Positions 1 through 28,309 of a stretch of DNA of 64,000 nucleotides are shown here, one piece after another (position 1 is the first letter of the stretch; each line of letters starts with the position of its first letter). The notes under the pieces were generated by a model that saw only the letters and a program-made list of their open reading frames with translations, did no database searches and was not told the DNA's origin. The position numbers were made by a program, and so were the translations under genes. This stretch comes from Psammoneis japonica (Eukaryota). Location: assembly GCA_008632985.1 (NCBI GenBank), contig QPGO01000017.1, positions 434,001 to 498,000 of the forward strand, read 5' to 3'.

Positions 1-412
1 AGAAGCCTCCCCCGTGTGAGCCAAGTTAATCTGTTTGTTTGGTTGGATGTGACTTCTCTACAAATTGTCACTCATGCTGCTGTGAATTGTGCTTGCATCT
101 CAAACATCGTGTTCAAAGCCACTTGACATTCTCGTCATTTCATTCTGTGGTTCGATGGACCTGGTCATCCCGGTGAAGATGGCAGAAGATCTCGCCGTCC
201 TTCACCGATCTTTTGCATGAGCGTCCTGTTTTGGTTTTGCCGTGACAACGTCCAGTCGGAATGGGAGACACTGCATCGTTCGGCTCCAAGTCAGCGTTGC
301 TGCCTTGTTGGCCAAGGCCTCGGGCTTCTTAGATTTTGCAGTGGCGGAGGCTTCTGTTGAATCAAGAAAGGCAGATGATGTTCAGTGAATCACAGCCCAC
401 ATGTGGCATTCA

Positions 413-3400
413 TCAAATGCCGAATGCACCAGAAGGAACCCTTTCGTTCTTGCTAATCGTTGCTGCCTTTGCCTTCGAAATGCCATCGCAGAACTGGTCT
501 TCCGTGATTTGGCCAGTGGAGCATTCACGGGTCATTTGGTTTTTGAGAATCATTGAGCGGAGCGGCACGCAGAGACCCTTGAGCACCACAAAGTCAGACT
601 CTGGGGTGACATCTTCCATCAAGATTTGAAAACCCTGCTCTGTGGCAGCGCGACAAATCTGAAACAGGCACTTCAAGTCGTCACTGTCACCCACCTTGAA
701 TCCGTCCAAAGCCAAGCTTTTGAAGTGAGCGTGCTGCATCCCTTGCATGCATGAGAAATTTTAGATTGGGGCATGAACCAATGAAATGAACCGAAATGCG
801 ATGTCCACTGCCCGTGTCCTCCTTGCTGGGATCGCCAGTGCCATTCCGGATAAATGCAGGGTCGTTGGTGAAGCACTCACCTTCATCCGAGCATGCGCAC
901 TCTTCAAAAATGAGGGTGCACCTCGAGCCCATCAACGGGCTGAAAATTGCATCTTCAATTATGAGCGTCTTCGCGAAGATAAGGTCAGGAAAATCGTGGG
1001 ACTCAGCGCATCGTTTCCCACAGGTGCGCATTGCCTCTGGCGTGACAGCAGGAAGAGGCTTGTTCTTCTTCGTTGTGACAGTTAGCTCGGATGCTCCGGA
1101 GACGTGTGCGAGGCCCACCAATGCAGTGGACAGCATGTCTTTCATAGCATCAGTTCCTTCAATGCTGACGACTTGGAGAATGTGGCTTTGCCTGTTCCAA
1201 ATGTGATGTGGATGTCTTGCGACTGGGTCAATCCCAGGCCGGGGCCCCACACAGTTCCATGTCTTCTCCGGTGACGTAATCATCGGAACCGATTGACTCG
1301 TCATCACATGACTCTGTGTCACTGGAATCATTCTTTCTGTTGAATGGATTGTCGATGAAGAAGGCTGCCGGCTTGTAATCGCTTGCGAGGATGATCTTGG
1401 TGCTGATTCCGACGAGATCTTGACCGTCCGTTGGTGCGTTCAAGCTAGCTTCGATGAGGGAGGGAACTTGTTCGGCAATGTTGCACACAACGATTGCTCC
1501 GGGGCATTCAGAATCCATGTCGTGAGCATACTTCCAATCGTCGTCGCTGACACCGTTGATGCGCATCTGATGGAGTTCCTTGAGAAGGAGGGCATCCGAC
1601 ATCGGATATCTAGAAATGGGAGAAAAACAAAGAGCTTCAGTGAGTAAGATGCATGAGGCAACACAGAATCTTTAAAATGCTAAAAAACTTACTGTTCGAT
1701 ACGTCTCGAGCCTGCTCCTCCAGAGGCAGAAGGGGTTGTAGCCGCCGGCTTGTTATCGTAACTGCTTCCATTGTCTCTGTCGTGGACGGCATCCGACGTC
1801 GGATATCTGGATATGGTAGCAACACAAAGAGCTTCAGCGAGTAAGACGCATGATGCAACACAAAATCTTTAAAATAATAGACAACTTACTGTTCGATACA
1901 TCTCGAATCTGCTCCTCCAGAGGCAGAAGGAGTTGTAGCCGCCGGCTTGTTGCTTCCATTGTCTCTGTCGTAGAGGGCATCCGATGTCGGATATCTAGAA
2001 ATAGTAGAAAAACAAAGAGCTTCAGTGAGTAAGACGCATGAGGCAACGAAGAATCTGTAAAATGCTAGACAACTTACCATTCGATACGTGTCGAATCTGC
2101 TCCTCCAAGGCATAAGGAGTTGTAGCCGCCGGCTTGTTGCTTCCATTGTCTCCGTCGTGGACGGCATCCGACGTCGGATATCTAGAAATGGTAGAAAAAC
2201 AAAGAGCTTCAGTGAGTAAGACGCATGATGGAACACAGAAATTTTACAGTACTAAAAAGCTTACTGTTCCATACGTCTCAAACCTGCTCCTCCAGATGCA
2301 GAAGGGGTTGTAGCCGCCGGCTTGTTATCGTGACTGCTTCCATTGTCTCCGTCGTGGACGGCATCAGACGTCGGATATCTAGAAATGATAGCGAAACAAA
2401 GAGCTTCAGTGAGTAAGACGCATGAGGCAACACAGAATCGTTAAAATAATAGACAACTTACTGTTCGATACGTCTCGAATCTGCTCCTCCAGAGGCAGAA
2501 GGAGTTGTAGCTGCCGGCTTGTTGCTTCCATTGTCTCCGTCGCAGAGGGCATCCGACGTCGGATATCTAGAAATAGTACAAAAACAAAGAGCTTCAGTCA
2601 GTAAGACGCATGAGGTAATGCAGAATCTGGAAAATACAAGACAACTTACTCCTCCGTAAGATTGTCGCCATCGTAGTGGGCATCTGGCGTCGGATGTCTA
2701 GAAATAGCAAAAAACAAAGGAAATTCGCTGAAAGAAAACAGAATTTGTAGCATGTATATTATGTCAAGAAGACTCACTGTTCAATGCCGCTGTTTTGCAT
2801 CTCCCCCGCTCGATCGTAAGTGCGCTCGTCGCCAAAGTCGGGGAATAAGGTGCGGCTACCGGTAGGGGGCGATTCCGCATCATCTCTATATAAATAATCC
2901 AACAGAAAGACAAAGACATTATCAGTGCAACACTCTCGAGGTAAAAAGGAATTAGTGAAGAGCGAGAAGAATGTGCAGAATGCAAGACCACTTACGGTTC
3001 GGTTATACCGCTTTGTTGCAAGAGGTGAGTAACGATTTTACGACTCATGCTGCCTGCTTCCGTAAGGCTCCCCGCCACGGTCCTACTCACGGTCTCCCTC
3101 ACAGTCTCCTCATACTGGTTCTGCCTGGCAATCGCTCTGTCATACAGCGCCAATCGAAACTGCTGGTTTCTACTGAGCGATTGTGGGTAACCGCCCGCCG
3201 GAGTTTGCACTCCGACAGTCGACGGGAGAGGCGTTGCTTCGCGGCGGTTGAGAGATTGCGGCGTTCTGTTTTCCAACGGAGGTCTCGCGTGCGGAGTCGT
3301 CGTCGTGTGCGCCGATCTCGGATGACTCGTCGAAGCACGGCGAGGCGTTTGGTGTTGTTGGTTCATTGCTGCGGCTTCGGCTTCCTTTTTGGCTAGTCGG

Positions 3401-9412: not shown

Positions 9413-12178
9413 ATGTCATTCACCATGGTATCAGGTGATTCAATACACATTCGCGTATTGGTAGCAAGCACGGGGGTTTGCTACAACATCTCACTGCATC
9501 CGACGGAGCTCACGTAAGTCGGAGTCTTTGTTAGCGTTCTCAGCGGGTTATTCCGGGTTTCTTCATTCGTGTCGACCCCGTCAGTGCACGTTTGGGTGAT
9601 CTTTCATCGATTGGACGAAAGATATCTGTGTATAGGGTGGGCCCAGAGGAATGCTTTGTTGTATGAAGGAGTCCGGTGTGAAACTTGAGAATTCCTTCGA
9701 TGAATTCTTACCGAATTTTGATGGTACCTCTCACGGTATGTTTGATGTATTTTCTTCCTCTGCAGGGTTGCGAATATCCGCCGTCATTTGGCCGCGGCAG
9801 TTCCGCCAGGAGACCAGATTCTGCTTCTCGGTCCACCATATAAAGTACCTAAGGACTCGACATTGCAATCTGAAGAAGTGTTGACTTCGCTTCGTCTGGG
9901 TGATCAGGAGGACAACCCGGTTCTGGAGGAAGGGGATGGCAGCACACAGAAGAATATTCTCTCCGCAACAGAACGGACTGGCGCACGGCGTCTCTTTTTG
10001 TTTTCAAAACAAGCTCTTTCAGAATCAGCTCCGGATCCGCCGCCGTGTCAGCTAGAACCTATGACTTTGCAATTACCTACCGAGCCAGGACCAAGTCCGC
10101 TTACACTGCGCGGGGAACAGGGCGGTTCACCCTCACAATCCACTCCCCCGGTTTTGTCGCCTTTGCACCAAGCTTTAGAAGTGTACGAACGGCGATTCAT
10201 GTTAAACTTATGCCGTGGACGAGCGCTTGCGGACGGAGCGGACATGCGCCTGAATGCGTGTCGAACTTGCGTTTCGGAACAGGCTGTCATGGCGCGAGCC
10301 CTTAGAGCGGCCGTATCGAACCTATCAGATCATTTCAATGGCGCCGCTCGTACACGTACTGAATTCACAACATCCTTTCAAGTCAAAACTGCATCTCATG
10401 CCGCCCTTTTGCAGAAGTTTGAATCTATTCTTCAATCTCTGGCTGGCATTCCTCTTCATCCTGCACTTGTGTCGGTCGCTCGAGCCTCGGGTCGAGTAAT
10501 GGAGACACTGTTGGACACGGTCCCCGTGGAACGCGAGAGAACATGGGCAAATCAATGTAACACATCCCATCAGCGATTGATGACTCTGTTTAGTGAACTG
10601 GATACAGCGTTTAGCCAATTGGGAACAACAGCATCTCGAGAAGAGGAGGCGCGGCTGGATTTGCAAGCTGAAGATGAAATAAAGAAGTTGTGGACGGAGG
10701 TGGATGGAACGGCAAAGACAATTCGTGATAAGCAAGCGGAACGCTTGGAGAAACTGACGGCGGATCACGGGGAGGTAGTGAAGGTCGTGATGAATGCGAT
10801 ATCAGAGGAAGGGGGCAACGCGCAAGATGCATTTACGACGCTTGAGGAAATGTCCAAAGCGTCTGTCAATATTATACCGTCGATGGAGGCTGATGATTTA
10901 ATACTTATGCAATTAATGCAAAAGGTTTCAGACGCCAAAACGCAGGCAATGAAACGCATGAAGAATCGACTCCGAGAAGTTAGCGTATCGCAGTCCGCCA
11001 TTCAACGCGTATTATCGAGTTTGGCCGTCGTGCGAGAAGCCCTCTCACAGCAAAGCGAGAATATGATCCATTTGGAGCACGTTGCGGAGCTTTCTGGCTC
11101 TTATAACGATTTTTTATCTGAACTTCGACGGAGAAGAGCCTACGGTGCTGCAGTTACTTCGTCTTCGGCGGCAATGATGGAGCGGCTAGCTTCGATGAGA
11201 AACGACGAAGTCAAGGCCCGGGAGAAGTTTCTTCGTGGGTCGGGACGTCATTTGATGCCTCCCTTCTTTGAAATTTTTGCTCCCACTTTGGCGACACCTC
11301 CTCCTTTGTTTACGCCGCAATTACCTGCAATGGTTGAGCTGGATACATTGCCGGATGTCGGCCCTGTTAGCGGGGCTACAACGACGGGACCATCTGCGGA
11401 CGCTGCGATGCAGGGTACGGATGCAGCCGGTGGCATAAGCACAGCTTCTTCTCTTACTACTGAAAGCCAGCCCCCACAAGCAATCGAGCCCGTGTCCATG
11501 ATGTCAACAACTGCCGCGAGCAGCACAACTCGCATGGAAGGCACTACTGCGACTGAGAAGCAACCGCAGGAGCAGCTGATTGTGAGTGCAGATGAACACA
11601 GCGCCACGGACGATCTTATCATGGGGCCTTCTGCTCAAGAGGATGCGGCAGCGGACGCCGAACGCAAGACTTTGGCATACGAGAACGCGGTTCTTCGTCA
11701 GGCTTTGGAGCGCATGGGCGGAAAGTCTCCTAGAACTTATATTGATGAGGCACGTGAAAATGATCCTAAAATTCAAGTCGAGCATGCTGCTGCATTAGAG
11801 TTGGCGGCACTGCGTAAGGAGCTGGAAACAACTAAGTCTGAGGCTCGCGCAGCCAAAGATTCCTTACTTGCGGCGAAGAAGAAGAGCGACAAGATCAGCC
11901 ACTCAAGTTTTGAAGTCGGAGATGTTGGTTTGTTCATGCCGACAGGACGTGGCTCTGGTGGCAAACGTACGTATTTAGCATTTCACACAAATTGTCCTCA
12001 TCGGTATCTGTCCACGGATAGTATCAAGGGCACTCCTGATTACGTTGTAGGCAGAATTGTGTACCAAGAGGAACTCATTGCCGGAGAGAGTGGAACCGAC
12101 GCGAACCCTTATGGACTTCATGTTGGAACGAAGTTCTGGGTACTGACCGTTGAACAGTTGGTCGTAAACAACCCATAA
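9413..12178 (+). CDS. ATG11: Autophagy-related protein 11 (RB1CC1/FIP200-like)
   Basis: Exon 1 at 9413-9513, GTAAGT...TGCAG intron, exon 2 at 9766-12178 in frame. Long helical scaffold (ELRRRRAY) and C-terminal Atg11 domain (ISHSSFEVGDVGLFMP, YLAFHTNCPHRYLS, YVVGRIVY). Confidence 0.85.
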
Positions 12179-12487: not shown

Positions 12488-12918
12488 CTATGCTTTTGTT
12501 TTCGCAGCAGGGGCATTCTCCTTTCTCGCTGCATCTTGTAAAAGCTCTGTGTCAACGTGCTCTGGTGGAATCTGAATATACCGTACAACACTCCCACGTA
12601 CGAAGCAGTTCTGAAGTGCACAAAGCTGTGGGTATTTCTCAGGATTCACTACGTTTACATTCAACAATTTTACGTTCAGGTACTGGTCAACGCTATGAAG
12701 AGTACCCGTTAAAACAACATCGTTCTTAAGTTCAACCGCAATCTCCTTTCCAACCAAGGTCTTGAAAAAAGAATAGAAAATCTGTTTGAAAACGCGAAAG
12801 AATGACACTGTAAGGGCTGGAAGTCACCACGCAGCAACAACTTTCGTTCCGAGACAGATGTTCAGATTCCAAGCATCCGCTTATTGCAATGTTAAAAGGC
12901 CCGTACAGGTCTTACCAT
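12488..12918 (-). CDS. LSM2: U6 snRNA-associated Sm-like protein LSm2
   Basis: FYSFFKTLVGKEIAVELKND...GTLHSVDQYLNVKL...NCFVRGSVVRYI. First coding exon is ATG only (12918-12916), followed by a GTAAG...CAG intron (12915-12782). Confidence 0.95.
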
Positions 12919-23160: not shown

Positions 23161-25050
23161 CTGCTCTGCAAGGAAGCAAAGAGTTGTTGTTGGCCATCTG
23201 CATGGGAGTTGACCAGAGACAAAATCAAGCTCACAGAATCTGCAAAGAGAAGTGGCAGTGCAACAAGAAAAAATTCCTTGCCAACTCTCTGCCAGCAGCA
23301 CTGTGTGTGGTGACTGCAGCAAATTCTGCCAAAACAAGTGTGCCAGCTCACTCTGATGCTGTCATCTTCACATGGATCACAGGAAGGTTGCAGGAAAAGA
23401 AGAGAAAAGTGCGGCAACATTGCCATCCTCATGTGGTGCTGCCACCATGGCAAGCTCCAATGTGTTGCACACTGCATGTGCTGAGGCTCCATGAGGAGCA
23501 TCATCTTGTGGGTGGCAGAGAAACATGGGTGCCACCTCCACATGCTGACTGAAGGCAAGCCTCAAAAACTTGGCAACAGCACAAGCAAGGACAAGACCTC
23601 TTTCTTGTCAATTCTTGAGAGAGCTCTTTTGGGACAGATGAAGGGTGCTTTCATGCCAAGGGGGCAAGACCAAGGGAGGAGATCCTGGAGGCTGCCAAAA
23701 GCAAAGAGAAGCCACTCTGCTGGCTGAGTGCAGCACAGGAAAGGTGAGAAATGCATGGGCCAACCAAGGTTGGGCTGGCCCTGGGTTGAAGAGATGATGC
23801 AAGAACTTGGCTGTGCCATGACCGGAGCATAAAAAATGAGAGATAAAAATGGGCAAAAGATTTCTGCAAAGTTGCCACACAGAAGCACCTTTTGCAGTGG
23901 GTGAGCTGAAAAAGAGAAAAGAAGGCAAAGGAGACCAGATTGGTGGGAGAGCATGGTGGTGGCAAAGAAGCAACCAGCTGAGCAGAGGAGGTTCAGACAA
24001 GCAGTTGTTTGTGTCATTTGTGAGGCAACGGCCAGGAGTTGAGCAGCTGCTGTGTCATGAAATGTTTTTTGCTGTGACCTGTGACTCATCAACACATTTG
24101 CTCCAAGCAGAGCCTGCAGCACAGCTGAAAAGACAACAAAAAAAATGTGGAGTGCACATTTGGGGTTTGCCACAAAAAGCTTTTGGGTTGATGCCAATTG
24201 GCCAAATTGGGCGGGTGACAGAATCCTGACTTTTTTAAATCAGAAAATCCATTGGATGATTTGGAAAACCCATTTTTTTTCATTGATTTTCCAAAGTGTG
24301 TGACAACAGTGGTTTTGTGGTGCCAATTTTCCCCCTCCTCAGGGCTCAGCCTTGTGCAATCTTAGAGTGGGAGCACCTCACTGGCACAGCCCCGAGCCAA
24401 AAGGAGTGCACACACGGTGGCTCAGCATGCTCAAGAAGTGGGCCAAGCTCCAACCCAAGATCAAAAAGTTTGAAATCTCAGATTGTGACATTGGGCCAAG
24501 ACCATTGATGCTGATCATCTTTGCCATGAGAGCGAGGCAGAAGAAGCGGGAGAGAAAGTCTCTCTCTCTCACAATGAGCGGATTTTGTTCCCCAGCTCTG
24601 CTCTTTCCTCAGCACTGGCAGCAGCATGGAGAGCCAACACAGTTTCCCTTTTTAACTTCTCACAACAACAAAGGGTCCTTCTGAGCCCGAACATTCTCCA
24701 AAAAGGCTGGGAGAAAGCCAGTCCAGCACCAGTGTTGCAAGTTGCACAACCTGGAGTGCGTGCCCAGGCAGCGCTTGGCTCAAGCGAACTTGGGTTCGCT
24801 GTCTGGAACACATTTCTCTCTGGAGTTCTGCACCCCATCTAAATGAAATTCTGCTAAGGGCACCAGCACTAAGCGGCAATTTTTTTGTTGATTGGTCGTG
24901 TTTCAACTGCTTGTGCCAGTGCAGCTGACGGCAGACCGGCTGACGAAGCAAAAGAATGTGACAAATGACTAAAAACGTGATTAAATACCAAAAAATCGAC
25001 CTCTCCAGTACAGAATGGACGTGGAAATCGTCTACAAATCACACAGAGTT

Positions 25051-25135
25051 AGCCGCTGGTCGTGGGTTCGACCCCCATCTTGAGCACTCCTTGCGGACGC
25101 TCTTGTAACTCAGTGGTCAGAGTGGCGGTCTTATG
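25051..25135 (+). tRNA. Circularly permuted tRNA-Ile(UAU): 3' half 25051-25086, 12-nt spacer, 5' half 25099-25135
   Basis: Joining GCTCTTGTAACTCAGTGGTCAGAGTGGCGGTCTTATG with AGCCGCTGGTCGTGGGTTCGACCCCCATCTTGAGCA gives a 73-nt cloverleaf. D stem ACTC/GAGT, anticodon stem GCGGT/GCCGC with loop CTTATGA, T stem GTGGG/CCCAT with loop TTCGACC. Acceptor GCTCTTG/CTTGAGC has two U-U pairs. Confidence 0.9.
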
Positions 25136-25828
25136 AGTGTGTTTCTTTTACAATTTCTTCTGTACAACGTCTCTTTTCGGTGGACTTGTAGGTGCCGTAA
25201 CGATGGTTTGACCACAACGCTTGACTCCAGTTAGATCGAAAAGTCATGGGGGTCAAGACCAGAACTTTGGCCTTCTCTTTTTGATCCTTGTCTGTGCACT
25301 GTTCCCAATTCATTTCTTGTCTGATGGAGATGTTTTGATTCAGCACAGAGTAAATGCTATCTAATACAAAGTAGAGAAGCTGTCATGTGCAACACGCCGG
25401 GGACAGAGTTTCCCCCTTTTGTTCGTCATAGCTTCCGACGTTCAACCAATGAAACGACTCGGACCAAACGTACGTACGCATGCTACGTACAAGTAGCAGC
25501 CTACTGAGTCACTGTACTGTACAATCACGCGCAAATTCTGCAATCGCTCACATTTTCATCCTGAATCAATCCGAAGAACACTGAAGGAAAGAACGGAACA
25601 GATTCTTGCATCTATTGCTTCTCCTCCATGAGAAAGTGCTCAACTAAGACCTGTGAATCGAGACGATTTTCGCCCTCTCGACACACCAAAGATAGTAGCT
25701 CGCTTCGCCGGATTATCATCGAAGTTTCTCTTTTCGATTGTATTTTCGCCCGGAAAACCCGGAGGTTGAAGTCACGATCTCGTCACAGCGACCGCTGTGC
25801 TGAACTTTTACCTTTTTTGATCGCTTTC

Positions 25829-28309
25829 ATGGACGAAGATTTGATGGCACAAGCGCTGTTTGCTAATCGAGAACTCATAGAAGAGCCTATCGAACGTTCA
25901 GGAATTACATCGAAGCGTCGTCGACCTACGTCTTATAATAATCACATGAGATACCGACAATTTTTTCCGTACACAAGAATCATGGTGATGATGTTGCTGT
26001 TGCAAAGATTCGCGAACTCAATCGTCGCGTATAGTCCAATGAAGCAGTCCCTGACACGAAGCGGATCATTTCTCTCGAGAAGATTTTCAGCATGTAATAT
26101 GAAAATGGCCGCTGATTCACGGGAATTACGGTTCTACTCCGGATCAGCGGCGATTCTGGAACAACACGAACCCCTCTTTGCGAGTGTCGTTGCATCAGAG
26201 GAGATAAGAGACAATCCTAAAGAAAAGCTCAAGTCAGCAAATGGTAGCCCAATACTGCCATTTCTCTCGGCTTCGGGACCCGCTTCTGGTGATGATACTG
26301 GTTCCCTGAACGGAAGACATTCTTCTGACAAGAATAGTAACGTTGAAGTCGGTCCGGCACTCGATCTGTCTAAGGAAGAAGAACGTCTCTTCATTCTGCT
26401 TTCGCAAGTAACTGAAGAGACTGATATTTCGTCAACTTTAAGAGTTGCAGGTGGCTGGGTTCGTGACAAGCTCTTGGCCACGAAAGAATACCAGCATTAC
26501 CACAAAACTGCCAAGGCTGAACGATTAACATCCAAGTCTAAGGCTAAGCCGACAGCCCCGGACGCCCAACAGCCATCAATGGGACGACAGGGGACTAAGG
26601 TCATAACGGACGTCTCCATGCATCCTGTGGATATTGACATTGCGCTTGATGATATGTTGGGACGTGAATTCGCCGACCACTTGAACGAGTTCCTCTCTGA
26701 ACATGGTCGCGAGACGGTGTCGGTTGGCGTGGTTCTGAAGAACCCAGAAAAATCCAAACACTTGGAAACAGCTACAATGAAAGTGGGTAGTTTCTGGATC
26801 GACTTTGTTAATTTGCGGGCCGAAGAATACACTCAAGACAGCCGAATACCTGATCTTATGCGAATTGGAACTCCCGCTGAAGATGCATTTCGACGTGATT
26901 TGACCATCAATGCACTCTTCTACAACATAAACACCCGGCAAGTGGAAGATTGGACAGGACGGGGACTGGAAGACTTGCGTCGTGGTGTTGTGGCGACACC
27001 GTTGGCTCCGCTTACGACCCTTCTAGACGATCCGCTTCGTGTATTGCGGTCGATTCGGTTTGCCGCTAGACTACGATTTGGTATGGATGAAGACTTAGTT
27101 GCCGCAGCGAAAGATGAACGGGTGAGAGATGCGCTCGCCCAAAAAGTGTCGCGGGAACGCGTTGGAGGAGAGGTTGATCTCATGCTTCGGTCGCCAGATC
27201 CTGTGGGTGCAATGAGACTTTTGATCAATCTCGACCTTGTTGACACGGTGTTTCCTGTTGAGTGCTATGTTGCCGACGAACGAGATCGCGAAAACATCTA
27301 CAACGACGGGTTGATCTTATTGACCACGACGCACGACCACGTTTGTGATTGCAAAGCGAATCCTCCCGTTTGGTGTGAGGCCAAGCGGGCCATGAGTACT
27401 GCGGCATTTGGCGTCAATGAACAAATACTCATGGACGATGAGAATGCACGACGATTGCTTTGGTACGCCTCTTTTCTTAAACCTCTCATGGACTATTCGA
27501 ATCGAAAGATTCCAAGTATCACGGCACGACGACGACAAGGACGAAAAGCTAATCGGTCTGTTGTGAGCAAAGTCTTGGTTGACGAATTGAAACGACCCAT
27601 GCGAGATGCCGAGGCTGCAGAGAAGATCATGAAGGCCGCCGATGACTTTACGAGACTCATCAACAGCGGATGTGATTTGTCTGCAATGGCAATACTTGTC
27701 AGTGACGTCAAGATTCAGCACCCGAAAGGGAACACAGAACTGGATGGTTTCGGTGTGACTTGCCTGATGGACTCGCAGCCGGTGGACAGCGAAACAGAGG
27801 ATCACCCGGTTTGGACGCACGCAATGGAGTTCCGATTACTGTGCAGTAAAGTCTTGCAACGGGTAGGGTCGTACTGGAGAGCAGCGTTAATACTCTCACT
27901 ATCGGAACAACTTGTAAACTTGCATATGGAACTGGACTACGCCATCGAAGGTGACGTGGTAAGTAAATTGAAATGTTTGATTATTTTGTTATTGAAGCAA
28001 AGACAACTTATGCTCCTTTCTTCTTGGTTGCCACAGGTGGACGAGAGCCAGGAAGAAAGACGGCAAGGTATTATTCAGAACTACGACGCTTTCGCTGCGG
28101 CGTTGCAACAAATGGGTCTGATTGGCATTTGGAGCCAGAAGCCGTTATTGGACGGAGGGGCGATGAAGAAGGTTCTCCCGCAGATCCCCAAGGGACCGGG
28201 TTTTCGAGAAGTAATGGAAGAGCAGGAGAATTGGATGACAACGCATCCAGGTGGCAGTAAAGAAGCACTTGCGAGACACGTTCAGGATACTTTTCCCGAG
28301 TATGTATAG
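25829..28309 (+). CDS. CCA1: CCA-adding tRNA nucleotidyltransferase (class II) with long N-terminal extension
   Basis: LRVAGGWVRDKLL, DIDIALD, DFVNLRAEEYTQDSRIP, EDAFRRDLTINALFYN and DDPLRVLRSIRFA. In-frame intron at about 27959-28036. True start uncertain (25628, 25829 or 25982). Confidence 0.9.
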   Translation: MDEDLMAQALFANRELIEEPIERSGITSKRRRPTSYNNHMRYRQFFPYTRIMVMMLLLQRFANSIVAYSPMKQSLTRSGSFLSRRFSACNMKMAADSRELRFYSGSAAILEQHEPLFASVVASEEIRDNPKEKLKSANGSPILPFLSASGPASGDDTGSLNGRHSSDKNSNVEVGPALDLSKEEERLFILLSQVTEETDISSTLRVAGGWVRDKLLATKEYQHYHKTAKAERLTSKSKAKPTAPDAQQPSMGRQGTKVITDVSMHPVDIDIALDDMLGREFADHLNEFLSEHGRETVSVGVVLKNPEKSKHLETATMKVGSFWIDFVNLRAEEYTQDSRIPDLMRIGTPAEDAFRRDLTINALFYNINTRQVEDWTGRGLEDLRRGVVATPLAPLTTLLDDPLRVLRSIRFAARLRFGMDEDLVAAAKDERVRDALAQKVSRERVGGEVDLMLRSPDPVGAMRLLINLDLVDTVFPVECYVADERDRENIYNDGLILLTTTHDHVCDCKANPPVWCEAKRAMSTAAFGVNEQILMDDENARRLLWYASFLKPLMDYSNRKIPSITARRRQGRKANRSVVSKVLVDELKRPMRDAEAAEKIMKAADDFTRLINSGCDLSAMAILVSDVKIQHPKGNTELDGFGVTCLMDSQPVDSETEDHPVWTHAMEFRLLCSKVLQRVGSYWRAALILSLSEQLVNLHMELDYAIEGDVVSKLKCLIILLLKQRQLMLLSSWLPQVDESQEERRQGIIQNYDAFAAALQQMGLIGIWSQKPLLDGGAMKKVLPQIPKGPGFREVMEEQENWMTTHPGGSKEALARHVQDTFPEYV

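What the first reader, a model, noticed from the sequence alone, without database searches (positions are those of the whole stretch)
25036..25149. Circularly permuted tRNA-Ile(UAU) gene with BHB-like termini
Seen: the 3' half (positions 38-73) lies upstream of the 5' half (1-37), broken at the canonical 37/38 intron site. Leader CACACAGAGTT and trailer AGTGTG form a bulge-helix-bulge-like motif: outer helix CACAC/GTGTG, 3-nt bulges TT|A and TG|A, and a central helix with 3 of 4 pairs. The 12-nt spacer contains a TCC-TTGC-GGA hairpin capping the acceptor stem, and TTTCTTTT follows as a likely Pol III terminator. Known: permuted tRNAs occur in Cyanidioschyzon merolae (matured through a circular intermediate), some prasinophytes, a chlorarachniophyte nucleomorph and Thermofilum. 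I do not recall a diatom or stramenopile case, and standard tRNAscan runs can miss such genes.
Basis: partly seen in the sequence, partly recalled or inferred. Interest (0 to 1): 0.9.

Follow-up and report, generated by a model that had tools for sequence, protein, structure and literature searches.

The report
Swapped-halves isoleucine tRNA gene in diatoms
This diatom carries an isoleucine tRNA gene whose back half is written before its front half; the same layout is kept in many related environmental sequences, which extends this rare kind of gene to a major group of ocean algae.

Summary
Window 25051-25135 (+) holds tRNA positions 38-73, a 12-nt spacer, then positions 1-37. ARAGORN reads the rejoined halves as tRNA-Ile(UAU). 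The leader and trailer form a strict bulge-helix-bulge motif that places the junction at 37/38.

The window is diatom nuclear DNA. One metagenome scan with a degenerate 5'-half pattern returned 16 intact units with the same permuted layout, one cut by a contig end, and decayed copies. The stems covary, including the outer leader/trailer helix. All units lack an encoded CCA; most have an upstream TATA-like run and a downstream T-run.

A covariance model built without the window finds only this locus in the window (92.8 bits, E 4.8e-26).

I read it as a functional type II circularly permuted tRNA gene, probably matured through a circular intermediate. I found no published diatom or Ile(UAU) case.

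Open points: no RNA data; no whole genome to test for a conventional copy; a conserved G37; recurrent acceptor-stem mismatches.

The scan had earlier noted a known permuted tRNA in Cyanidioschyzon, not this family.

The parts
24980..24987 (+). TATA-like A/T run (ATTAAATA), candidate upstream Pol III promoter element, 71-64 nt before position 38
   Evidence: All 14 units tested have an A/T-only run of 7 nt or more between about -71 and -24. The window's run is the most distant, so this assignment is weak.
25040..25044 (+). Leader strand of the outer BHB helix h' (CACAC), pairs with 25137-25141
   Evidence: 5 of 5 pairs in the window. All 5 pairs of this helix change on both sides across the family. 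RNAalifold predicts it on the 15 metagenome units alone.
25045..25048 (+). Leader strand of the central 4-bp BHB helix H (AGAG), pairs with tRNA positions 35-32 (25133-25130)
   Evidence: 3 of 4 pairs. The G three nt before the 3' cut pairs with C32 in 16 of 17 aligned rows.
25049..25050 (+). Two leader nucleotides that form the 3-nt bulge together with A38 (25051); predicted cut before 25051
   Evidence: Direct reading. The geometry is as defined for BHB motifs in PMC3978253.
25051..25086 (+). 3' half of tRNA-Ile(UAU): position 38, anticodon-stem 3' strand, variable loop, T arm, acceptor 3' strand, discriminator A73; no CCA encoded
25087..25098 (+). 12-nt intervening sequence between position 73 and position 1, to be removed by 3' and 5' end processing
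   Evidence: Family spacers are 5-14 nt and not conserved.
25099..25135 (+). 5' half of tRNA-Ile(UAU): acceptor 5' strand, D arm, anticodon-stem 5' strand, loop C32 U33 U34 A35 U36 G37
25136..25141 (+). Trailer: one bulge nucleotide (A, with U36 and G37 forming the second 3-nt bulge; predicted cut after 25135), then the GTGTG strand of helix h'
25142..25149 (+). TTTCTTTT, likely Pol III terminator
   Evidence: A run of 4 or more T starts within 18 nt after position 37 in 13 of 16 family rows.

Best explanation
Window 25040-25149 (+) is a functional nuclear gene for tRNA-Ile(UAU) in circularly permuted form. It is type II in the classification of Soma (2014), with the junction at 37/38.

Inferred pathway, by analogy with Cyanidioschyzon merolae:
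1. Pol III starts from an upstream TATA-like element and stops at the T-run. This makes one linear precursor: leader, 3' half, 12-nt spacer, 5' half, trailer.
2. Leader and trailer pair with each other and with positions 32-35 to form a bulge-helix-bulge motif.
3. The tRNA splicing endonuclease cuts after G37 and before A38, and the tRNA ligase joins these ends into a circle.
4. RNase P and tRNase Z remove the spacer, opening the circle at the acceptor stem.
5. CCA is added.

Shown here: the gene layout, the cloverleaf, the BHB, its conservation and covariation in relatives, the lack of an encoded CCA, and the flanking A/T run and T-run.

Inferred: transcription, circularisation, end processing, charging with isoleucine, and decoding of AUA.
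For: Layout and cloverleaf
- ARAGORN calls the rejoined halves tRNA-Ile(tat), with the break at 37/38.
- U8, A14, G18G19, A21, U33, G53, T54 T55 C56, A58 and C61 can be read in the sequence.

Strict hBHBh' geometry
- 5-bp h', 3-nt bulges, and H with 3 of 4 pairs.

Conservation
- One metagenome scan with a degenerate 5'-half pattern returned 119 loci with 123 matches.
- 16 matches are intact units with the same 3' half-spacer-5' half order. One is cut by a contig start (L004). L015/L041 carry decayed copies.

Covariation on 17 aligned rows
- 85.7% of cells are paired, against 74.5% in shuffles and 31-48% when partners are slid.
- 14 of 30 pairs change on both sides; 0 of 500 shuffles reach the covariation score.
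- All 5 pairs of the leader/trailer helix change on both sides, as do 5 of 7 acceptor pairs.
- Example: the window has CACAC/GTGTG, and relatives have AACAC/GTGTT, AGCAC/GTGCT and GGCAC/GTGCC.
- Own leader and trailer pair at 3.75 of 5 on average, against 2.0 for leaders paired with other units' trailers.
- RNAalifold on the 15 metagenome rows alone predicts the outer helix and the anticodon, T and D stems.

Leave-one-out test
- A covariance model built from those 15 rows finds one hit in the window, 25040-25141, full length, at 92.8 bits and E 4.8e-26.
- This lies within the family range of 88.9-106.4 bits. Tandem conventional tRNA pairs score 46 bits or less.

Flanks
- A/T run of 7 nt or more upstream in 14 of 14 units tested.
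- T4-5 run within 18 nt in 13 of 16 rows.
- No CCA after position 73 in 16 of 16 rows.

No partner halves
- No second 5' or 3' half lies anywhere in the window at up to 12 mismatches.
- None lies in the available flanks of the 13 loci that hold 14 of the 16 intact units (the near-duplicates L087 and L093 were not checked).

Demand for the tRNA
- AUA makes up 22 of 155 Ile codons in five long ORFs of the window.

Taxonomy
- The window's CCA-enzyme ORF has only diatoms among its named best hits, at about 55-61% identity.
- L046 carries ATG11 and LSm2 genes 87% and 92% identical in protein to the window's. L018's LSm2 is closest to that of the diatom Minutocellus polymorphus, at 91%.
Against: - No RNA evidence of any kind. 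The junction, the circle and the CCA-tailed end are unobserved.
- No whole genome is held, so a conventional Ile-UAU gene elsewhere cannot be excluded.
- Position 37 is G in the window and in all 16 intact relatives. tRNAs that read A-starting codons normally carry A37 (t6A): 77 of the 85 matches that a crude T-loop rule sorted as conventional in the same scan have A37, and t6A37 is inferred for C. merolae tRNA-Ile(UAU).
- The window's acceptor stem has only 5 of 7 pairs, with adjacent U.U at 5:68 and 6:67. Across the family, U6.U67 and C3.A70 recur.
- The window's TATA-like run lies at -71, further out than in relatives (-24 to -64) and outside the 50 bp quoted for C. merolae.
- The predicted precursor is not more stable than shuffled sequence (z -0.19). 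This is common for tRNAs.
- Decayed copies exist in L015/L041, so not every copy of the family is functional.
Confidence: 0.8

Rival explanations
1. The family is real, but the window's copy is a decaying or non-functional paralogue. The working gene, permuted or conventional, lies elsewhere in this genome.
For: - There are two adjacent U.U mismatches in the acceptor stem.
- The TATA-like run is further upstream than in any relative.
- In L046 and L018 the unit lies directly beside LSm2. In the window it lies about 12 kb from LSm2.
- Decayed copies of the family exist in L015/L041.
Against: - The window scores 92.8 bits under a model built without it. This is inside the intact family's range, while decayed copies score 60.8, 46.9 and 35.5 bits.
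- All invariant columns of the family are kept.
- The BHB is perfect in the outer helix, and a T-run follows.
- Acceptor stems with only 5 of 7 pairs occur in 8 of the 16 intact rows, counted by eye from the alignment.
Confidence: 0.1
2. The gene is conserved and expressed, but its product is not an ordinary isoleucine AUA decoder. The conserved G37 and the acceptor mismatches would mark a different identity, a need for RNA editing, or a non-translational tRNA-like role.
For: - G37 is found in 17 of 17 intact units, window included.
- U6.U67 is unpaired in 13 of 17 rows, and 3:70 in 10 of 17, mostly as C.A.
- Of the 85 matches sorted as conventional in the same scan, 8 also carry G37.
Against: - The anticodon loop is a standard 7-nt loop with U33 and UAU.
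- Discriminator A73 and all the tertiary-interaction bases read are present.
- Conventional genes with the same CUUAUGA loop and fully paired acceptor stems exist, for example L028 and L040. G37 therefore goes with UAU in some lineages without any other oddity.
Confidence: 0.07
3. It is an inert remnant of two adjacent ordinary tRNA genes (or of one rearranged gene), and the flanking complementarity is chance.
For: A tandem duplication is the usual model for how permuted genes arise. L081 does carry two units in tandem.
Against: - The same truncated order recurs in 16 intact units.
- Leader and trailer change in a compensatory way.
- Terminators follow directly after the trailer.
- No outer halves lie in the flanks.
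Confidence: 0.02

Closest known systems
Type II (37/38 junction) circularly permuted tRNA genes of Ostreococcus, Micromonas and the Bigelowiella natans nucleomorph (Maruyama et al. 2010, seen only through Table 1 and the text of PMC3978253)
   Same: The 3' half lies upstream of the 5' half. The junction is at 37/38. The intervening sequence is short (5-64 bp there, 5-14 bp here). A BHB motif sits at the canonical position that a eukaryal endonuclease can use. There are AT-rich upstream regions, and no CCA is encoded.
   Different: - Lineage: a diatom nucleus, not green algae or a green-derived nucleomorph.
- tRNA species: no Ile gene is among the 34 genes in that table.
- The outer helix h' is present and covaries, giving a strict hBHBh' form, whereas the review describes hBH for the green lineage.
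Permuted tRNA genes of Cyanidioschyzon merolae (Soma et al. 2007; PMC3978253 sections 4 and 8 read)
   Same: The gene plan is the same. There is a TATA-like element upstream, a T-stretch downstream and no signals in the spacer. The proposed maturation runs through a circular intermediate. That pathway was shown experimentally only in C. merolae.
   Different: C. merolae has junctions at four positions and extra introns. Its tRNA-Ile(UAU) is not permuted: it carries three introns, and t6A37 is inferred for it (PMC9602550, abstract and passages). The diatom family has one junction type, no further intron and G37.
Conventional intron-containing eukaryotic tRNA-Ile(UAU) genes (yeast type). Intron-dependent pseudouridine 34/36 formation by Pus1 is stated in the abstract of PMC9602550
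   Same: The anticodon is UAU. Positions 32-35 pair with sequence that is later removed. A G three nt before the 3' cut pairs with C32; I recall this as the anticodon-intron pair needed by eukaryal endonucleases, and PMC3978253 section 8 mentions these A-I pairs. The permuted precursor thus offers the same anticodon-paired structure as an intron would.
   Different: The order of the halves is swapped, so the 'intron' is split into a leader and a trailer. Position 37 is G, not A.
Permuted tRNA genes of the green alga Auxenochlorella (PMC12636532, passages only)
   Same: It is a recent example in which tRNAscan-SE gave an incomplete tRNA set and permuted genes filled the gap.
   Different: It is a trebouxiophyte green alga. 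The gene list is in a supplementary figure that I did not see.

Membership tests
Circularly permuted tRNA genes (Soma 2007/2014) | The 3' half is encoded upstream of the 5' half on one strand, separated by an intervening sequence that bridges positions 73 and 1 | tested here: met
   25051-25086, a 12-nt spacer, then 25099-25135.
Circularly permuted tRNA genes (Soma 2007/2014) | The rejoined halves give a cloverleaf with the eukaryal consensus elements (U8, G18G19, U33, U54U55C56) | tested here: met
   ARAGORN calls tRNA-Ile(tat). The listed bases can be read. The acceptor stem has 5 of 7 pairs.
Circularly permuted tRNA genes (Soma 2007/2014) | Sequences beside the junction form a BHB motif (3-nt bulges, a 4-bp central helix, flanking helices of more than 2 bp) | tested here: met
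   Window: h (anticodon stem) 5 of 5, H 3 of 4, h' 5 of 5, and both bulges of 3 nt. h' has 4 or more of 5 pairs in 12 of 16 rows and covaries at all 5 pairs.
Circularly permuted tRNA genes (Soma 2007/2014) | TATA-like sequence upstream (within about 50 bp in C. merolae), T-stretch downstream, and neither in the spacer | tested here: inconclusive
   The T-run is met (25142-25149; 13 of 16 rows). An A/T run is present in 14 of 14 units, but in the window it lies at -71 to -64. There is no T-run in the spacer. Promoter function was not tested.
Circularly permuted tRNA genes (Soma 2007/2014) | The 3' CCA is not encoded | tested here: met
   0 of 16 intact rows have CCA after position 73.
Circularly permuted tRNA genes (Soma 2007/2014) | Circular RNA intermediate, and a mature tRNA with the halves joined | not testable with these tools
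   No RNA holder is listed for the locus. Only DNA contigs of the probable source run could be laid.
Circularly permuted tRNA genes (Soma 2007/2014) | The gene is needed to complete the decoding set (no conventional gene for the same anticodon) | not testable with these tools
   No whole genome is held. Within the window there is no other half or tRNA.
Cytosolic tRNA-Ile(UAU) | Anticodon U34 A35 U36 in a 7-nt loop with U33 | tested here: met
   The loop is C U U A U G A.
Cytosolic tRNA-Ile(UAU) | A37 (t6A), as expected for tRNAs reading A-starting codons (general knowledge; t6A37 is inferred for C. merolae in PMC9602550) | tested here: not met
   G37 is found in the window and in all 16 intact relatives. 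Of the 85 matches sorted as conventional in the scan, 8 also have G37.
Cytosolic tRNA-Ile(UAU) | Charged with isoleucine and reads AUA | not testable with these tools
   The only indirect support is that AUA is used (22 of 155 Ile codons).

The most novel reading that the evidence does not exclude
Diatoms as a group, and perhaps further ochrophytes, encode their AUA-reading tRNA-Ile(UAU) only as a circularly permuted gene. That gene has been kept, with a covarying splice motif, across deep diatom lineages. It would be the first permuted tRNA in a stramenopile nucleus. It would explain a tRNA that standard annotation misses. Its fixed G37 and recurrent C3.A70 and U6.U67 mismatches would point to an unusual modification or editing step tied to the circular pathway.
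Probability: 0.4. Interest if true: 0.8.

Novelty: new member of a known kind. Interest (0 to 1): 0.68.

Why it matters
Permuted tRNA genes were known from one red alga, a few green algae, a green-derived nucleomorph and one archaeon. There were 34 genes in the 2014 review, and Auxenochlorella was added in 2025. A conserved family in diatom nuclei would do four things:

- **New supergroup.** It puts the phenomenon in the stramenopiles, among the most abundant marine primary producers.
- **Long-term maintenance.** It shows that a permuted gene can be maintained for a long time, with compensatory evolution of its splice motif.
- **Missed annotation.** It adds tRNA-Ile(UAU), which standard tools would not annotate in these genomes. 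ARAGORN and Rfam find nothing at this locus.
- **Link to modification.** In yeast this tRNA's intron is needed for anticodon pseudouridylation. The permuted precursor keeps the anticodon paired to removable sequence, which suggests one reason the arrangement is tolerated or favoured.

Diatoms can be cultured and transformed, so the pathway could be tested directly.

Tried and rejected
- **Whole genome.** The genome-wide search for a conventional Ile-UAU gene or other permuted tRNAs could not be done.
- **Sequencing runs.** No RNA holder is listed; only three DNA rows of one sample appear, probably the source.
- **Laying those runs.** One identical Logan contig covers the stretch. This confirms the DNA only.
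- **Earlier findings of this scan.** There is nothing on this genome or sequence. There are only notes on archaeal BHB cases and on a known C. merolae permuted tRNA.
- **MFE folding of the precursor.** It is not more stable than shuffles (z -0.19) and does not give the cloverleaf. I did not use it as evidence.
- **Synteny by tblastx of window 20-30 kb against all loci.** Only the tRNA itself matched.
- **Longer pieces of the metagenome records.** The records are not held.
- **Pfam on flank ORFs.** 89 queries (some ORFs in both calls). The flank ORFs of the permuted loci gave three with hits: ATG11 and LSm2 in L046, and LSm2 in L018. ORFs beside two conventional genes also hit: L028 (Peptidase_S74) and L040 (small GTPase families).
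- **Homologue search with an L043 flank ORF.** It returned only itself.
- **Duplicated-tile ARAGORN scan over all 119 loci.** It was too noisy in tRNA-cluster contigs to reveal other permuted species. It did recall most of the permuted units as Ile(tat) with the break at 38 or 39; L091 was reported at 36, and L099 was not called.
- **Spacer hairpin as a functional cap.** Rejected, because the spacers are not conserved.
- **CCA-enzyme gene 490 bp downstream as a functional link.** I considered it and left it as coincidence, because relatives have other neighbours.
- **Literature searches for a diatom or stramenopile case.** None was found. One search failed on term syntax and was reworded.
Full report
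**What is there.** Window 25030-25150 reads, on the + strand:
- a leader ending CACAC AGAG TT;
- 36 nt that match tRNA positions 38-73 (25051-25086);
- a 12-nt spacer (25087-25098);
- 37 nt that match positions 1-37 (25099-25135);
- a trailer A GTGTG, followed by TTTCTTTT.

ARAGORN and Rfam on the unaltered window report no tRNA. When a script rejoined the two halves by coordinates, ARAGORN called tRNA-Ile(tat) with a normal cloverleaf. When the region was duplicated head to tail, it reported the break as an intron at 37/38. The usual invariant bases can be read (U8, A14, G18G19, A21, U33, G53 T54 T55 C56, A58, C61). There are two oddities: position 37 is G, and the acceptor stem has adjacent U.U mismatches at 5:68 and 6:67.

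**Is it more than chance?**
- A scan of duplicated 130-nt tiles finds this locus and no other in the window.
- The same scan finds none in the reversed window and two poor loci in 1.28 Mb of shuffled sequence.
- No other copy of either half exists in the window at up to 12 mismatches.
- A Logan contig of the probable source run carries the 601-nt stretch unchanged at depth 61.5. The order of the halves is therefore in the reads, although this is not independent DNA.

**Whose DNA?** The window has long, intron-poor eukaryotic ORFs: MCM, ATG11, an ABC transporter and a CCA-adding enzyme. The CCA-enzyme ORF has only diatoms among its named best hits: Fistulifera, Seminavis, Cylindrotheca, Nitzschia, Synedropsis and Odontella, at about 55-61% identity. 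No whole genome is held.

- Most matches are conventional tRNA(UAU) genes, many of them in tRNA clusters. By a crude T-loop rule, 85 are conventional, and 77 of these have A37.
- 16 matches, in 15 loci, are intact units with the window's layout: L016, L018, L043, L046, L047, L048, L063, L081 (twice), L085, L087, L091, L093, L099, L116 and L118. L087 equals L047, and L093 nearly equals L018.
- L004 is the same kind but is cut by its contig start.
- L015 and L041 (one sequence) carry three decayed copies within a repeat.
- None of the 13 loci checked, which hold 14 of the 16 intact units (the near-duplicates L087 and L093 were left out), has a further 5' half upstream or a T arm downstream in the flanks held.
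- L046 carries ATG11 and LSm2 genes whose proteins are 87% and 92% identical to the window's. L018 carries LSm2, whose closest named relative is the diatom Minutocellus polymorphus at 91%. At least these units are therefore diatom DNA. The other contigs are unassigned.

**Structure and covariation.** I aligned 17 rows (the window, 15 of the 16 intact units, leaving out L087 because it equals L047, and L015) and imposed the permuted cloverleaf plus BHB.
- 85.7% of cells pair, against 74.5% in shuffles and 31-48% with partners slid by 1-3 columns.
- 14 of 30 pairs change on both sides, and 0 of 500 shuffles reach the covariation score.
- The outer leader/trailer helix changes on both sides at all 5 pairs. 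The acceptor does so at 5 of 7 pairs, and the anticodon and T stems at 2 of 5 each. The D stem never varies.
- In the strict register the outer helix has 5 of 5 pairs in 4 rows, 4 of 5 in 8 rows, 3 of 5 in 1 row, and 1-2 of 5 in 3 rows. Those last three (L047, L116, L048) pair if one nucleotide is allowed to bulge; that is my reading.
- The central helix has 3 of 4 pairs in 13 rows and 4 of 4 in 3 rows.
- The G three nt before the 3' cut pairs with C32 in 16 of 17 rows.
- Own leader and trailer pair at 3.75 of 5 on average, against 2.0 for mismatched partners.
- RNAalifold, run on the 15 metagenome rows without the window, predicts the outer helix, the anticodon, T and D stems, and 4 acceptor pairs on its own.

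**Leave-one-out test.** A covariance model built from those 15 rows finds a single hit in the window: 25040-25141, full length, 92.8 bits, E 4.8e-26.
- The training units score 88.9-106.4 bits by construction.
- Decayed copies score 60.8, 46.9 and 35.5 bits.
- Tandem conventional tRNAs, which mimic the order of the halves, score 46 bits or less.

**Flanks.**
- Spacers are 5-14 nt with no shared sequence or hairpin. The window's TCC-TTGC-GGA hairpin is probably incidental.
- No unit encodes CCA (0 of 16).
- A run of four or more T starts within 18 nt of position 37 in 13 of 16 rows. L047 has one at about +27, while L099 and L116 have none in view.
- All 14 units tested have an A/T-only run of 7 nt or more, mostly TATA-like, between -71 and -24. 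The window's run (24980-24987) is the farthest.
- These features match those listed for known permuted genes in Soma's review, of which I read sections 4 and 8.

**Mechanism.** The BHB geometry puts the two cuts after G37 and before A38, which restores a 7-nt anticodon loop. By analogy with C. merolae, where the pathway was shown experimentally (review), I infer these steps: transcription as one linear RNA; cutting by the splicing endonuclease; ligation to a circle; removal of the spacer by RNase P and tRNase Z; and CCA addition.

The permuted precursor keeps positions 32-35 paired to sequence that is later removed, just as an intron would. In yeast, pseudouridines 34 and 36 of tRNA-Ile(UAU) are made in an intron-dependent way (abstract of PMC9602550). 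The link to this family is my inference. AUA is used in the window's genes (22 of 155 Ile codons).

**What does not fit.**
- G37 is fixed in all 17 intact units, whereas A37 is the rule for this anticodon. Eight matches sorted as conventional in the scan share G37, so it is a lineage trait rather than decay. Its meaning is unknown.
- U6.U67 (13 of 17 rows unpaired) and position 3:70 (10 of 17 unpaired, mostly C.A) recur. The window adds U5.U68.
- The window's unit is about 12 kb from LSm2, whereas in L046 and L018 it lies beside LSm2.

**Novelty.** Soma's 2014 table lists 34 permuted genes in six algae and one archaeon, with no Ile gene and no diatom. Passages of a 2026 review of tRNA genes in photosynthetic eukaryotes name permuted genes only in red algae, prasinophytes and the B. 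natans nucleomorph, while discussing Phaeodactylum's tRNA count. Passages of PlantRNA 2.0 and of the tRNAscan-SE 2.0 paper add none. Auxenochlorella is a further green-algal case. Full-text searches pairing 'permuted tRNA' with diatom, stramenopile, Thalassiosira or Phaeodactylum, a search pairing Ile-UAU terms with diatom, and a listing of 40 of the 67 papers that hold 'permuted tRNA' since 2011, showed no diatom case. I did not read Maruyama 2010 or Soma 2007 themselves, nor any supplements.

**Verdict.** This is a real, conserved, type II circularly permuted tRNA-Ile(UAU) gene family in diatoms: a new member of a known kind. Confidence that the window's locus is a functional member matured in the known way is 0.8. 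Interest is 0.68.

Noticed in passing
window 25628-28309 (+): The gene 490 bp downstream of the permuted tRNA encodes a tRNA nucleotidyltransferase (CCA-adding enzyme; PolyA_pol head domain, E 6.8e-24). This is the enzyme that would finish this tRNA's 3' end. Relatives have other neighbours, so it is probably coincidence.
   Followed up: partly
L015 815-914, 1075-1168 and 1691-1784 (-); the same in L041: Three decayed copies of the permuted unit lie within about 1 kb, each inside a longer repeated segment. They have a broken T stem, a duplicated anticodon-loop piece and no T-run, and score 35.5, 46.9 and 60.8 bits. The family can therefore be copied and leave pseudogenes.
   Followed up: partly
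L081 294-390 and 452-550 (-): Two intact permuted units lie in tandem, about 60 nt apart, each with its own T-run. The 5' half of the first and the 3' half of the second would look like a conventional gene with a long 'intron' that contains a terminator.
   Followed up: no
L051, match on the - strand (locus 351-379) and the following ~100 nt: This is a conventional-order tRNA(UAU) with G37 that seems to carry an insert of about 28 nt inside the T-loop. The insert includes a run of nine T. It could be a non-canonical intron or a dead gene.
   Followed up: no
alignment A1, acceptor stem columns 73:102 and 76:99: The mismatches U6.U67 (13 of 17 rows) and, at 3:70, mostly C.A (10 of 17 rows unpaired) are the majority state in the permuted family. 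Conventional G37 relatives such as L028 have fully paired acceptor stems. The cause could be RNA editing or a tolerated feature; it is unexplained.
   Followed up: partly
window 9788-12178 (+) and 12515-12784 (-); L046 2-322 and 949-1269: The gene pair ATG11-LSm2 is syntenic between the window and L046. In L046 and L018 the permuted tRNA follows LSm2 directly. In the window nothing tRNA-like lies there, and the unit sits 12 kb further on.
   Followed up: partly
L028 (conventional UAU/G37 gene) with ORF 252-1160 (-): A conventional tRNA(UAU) with G37 lies in a small tRNA cluster next to an ORF with a Peptidase_S74 (endosialidase chaperone) domain, which is typical of viral tail-fibre-like proteins. 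Some G37 UAU tRNAs may be virus-encoded.
   Followed up: no
L022 931-1067 (+): There are tandem repeats of about 108 nt, each holding a tRNA(UAU)-like 5' part followed by an 8-nt-loop variant.
   Followed up: no
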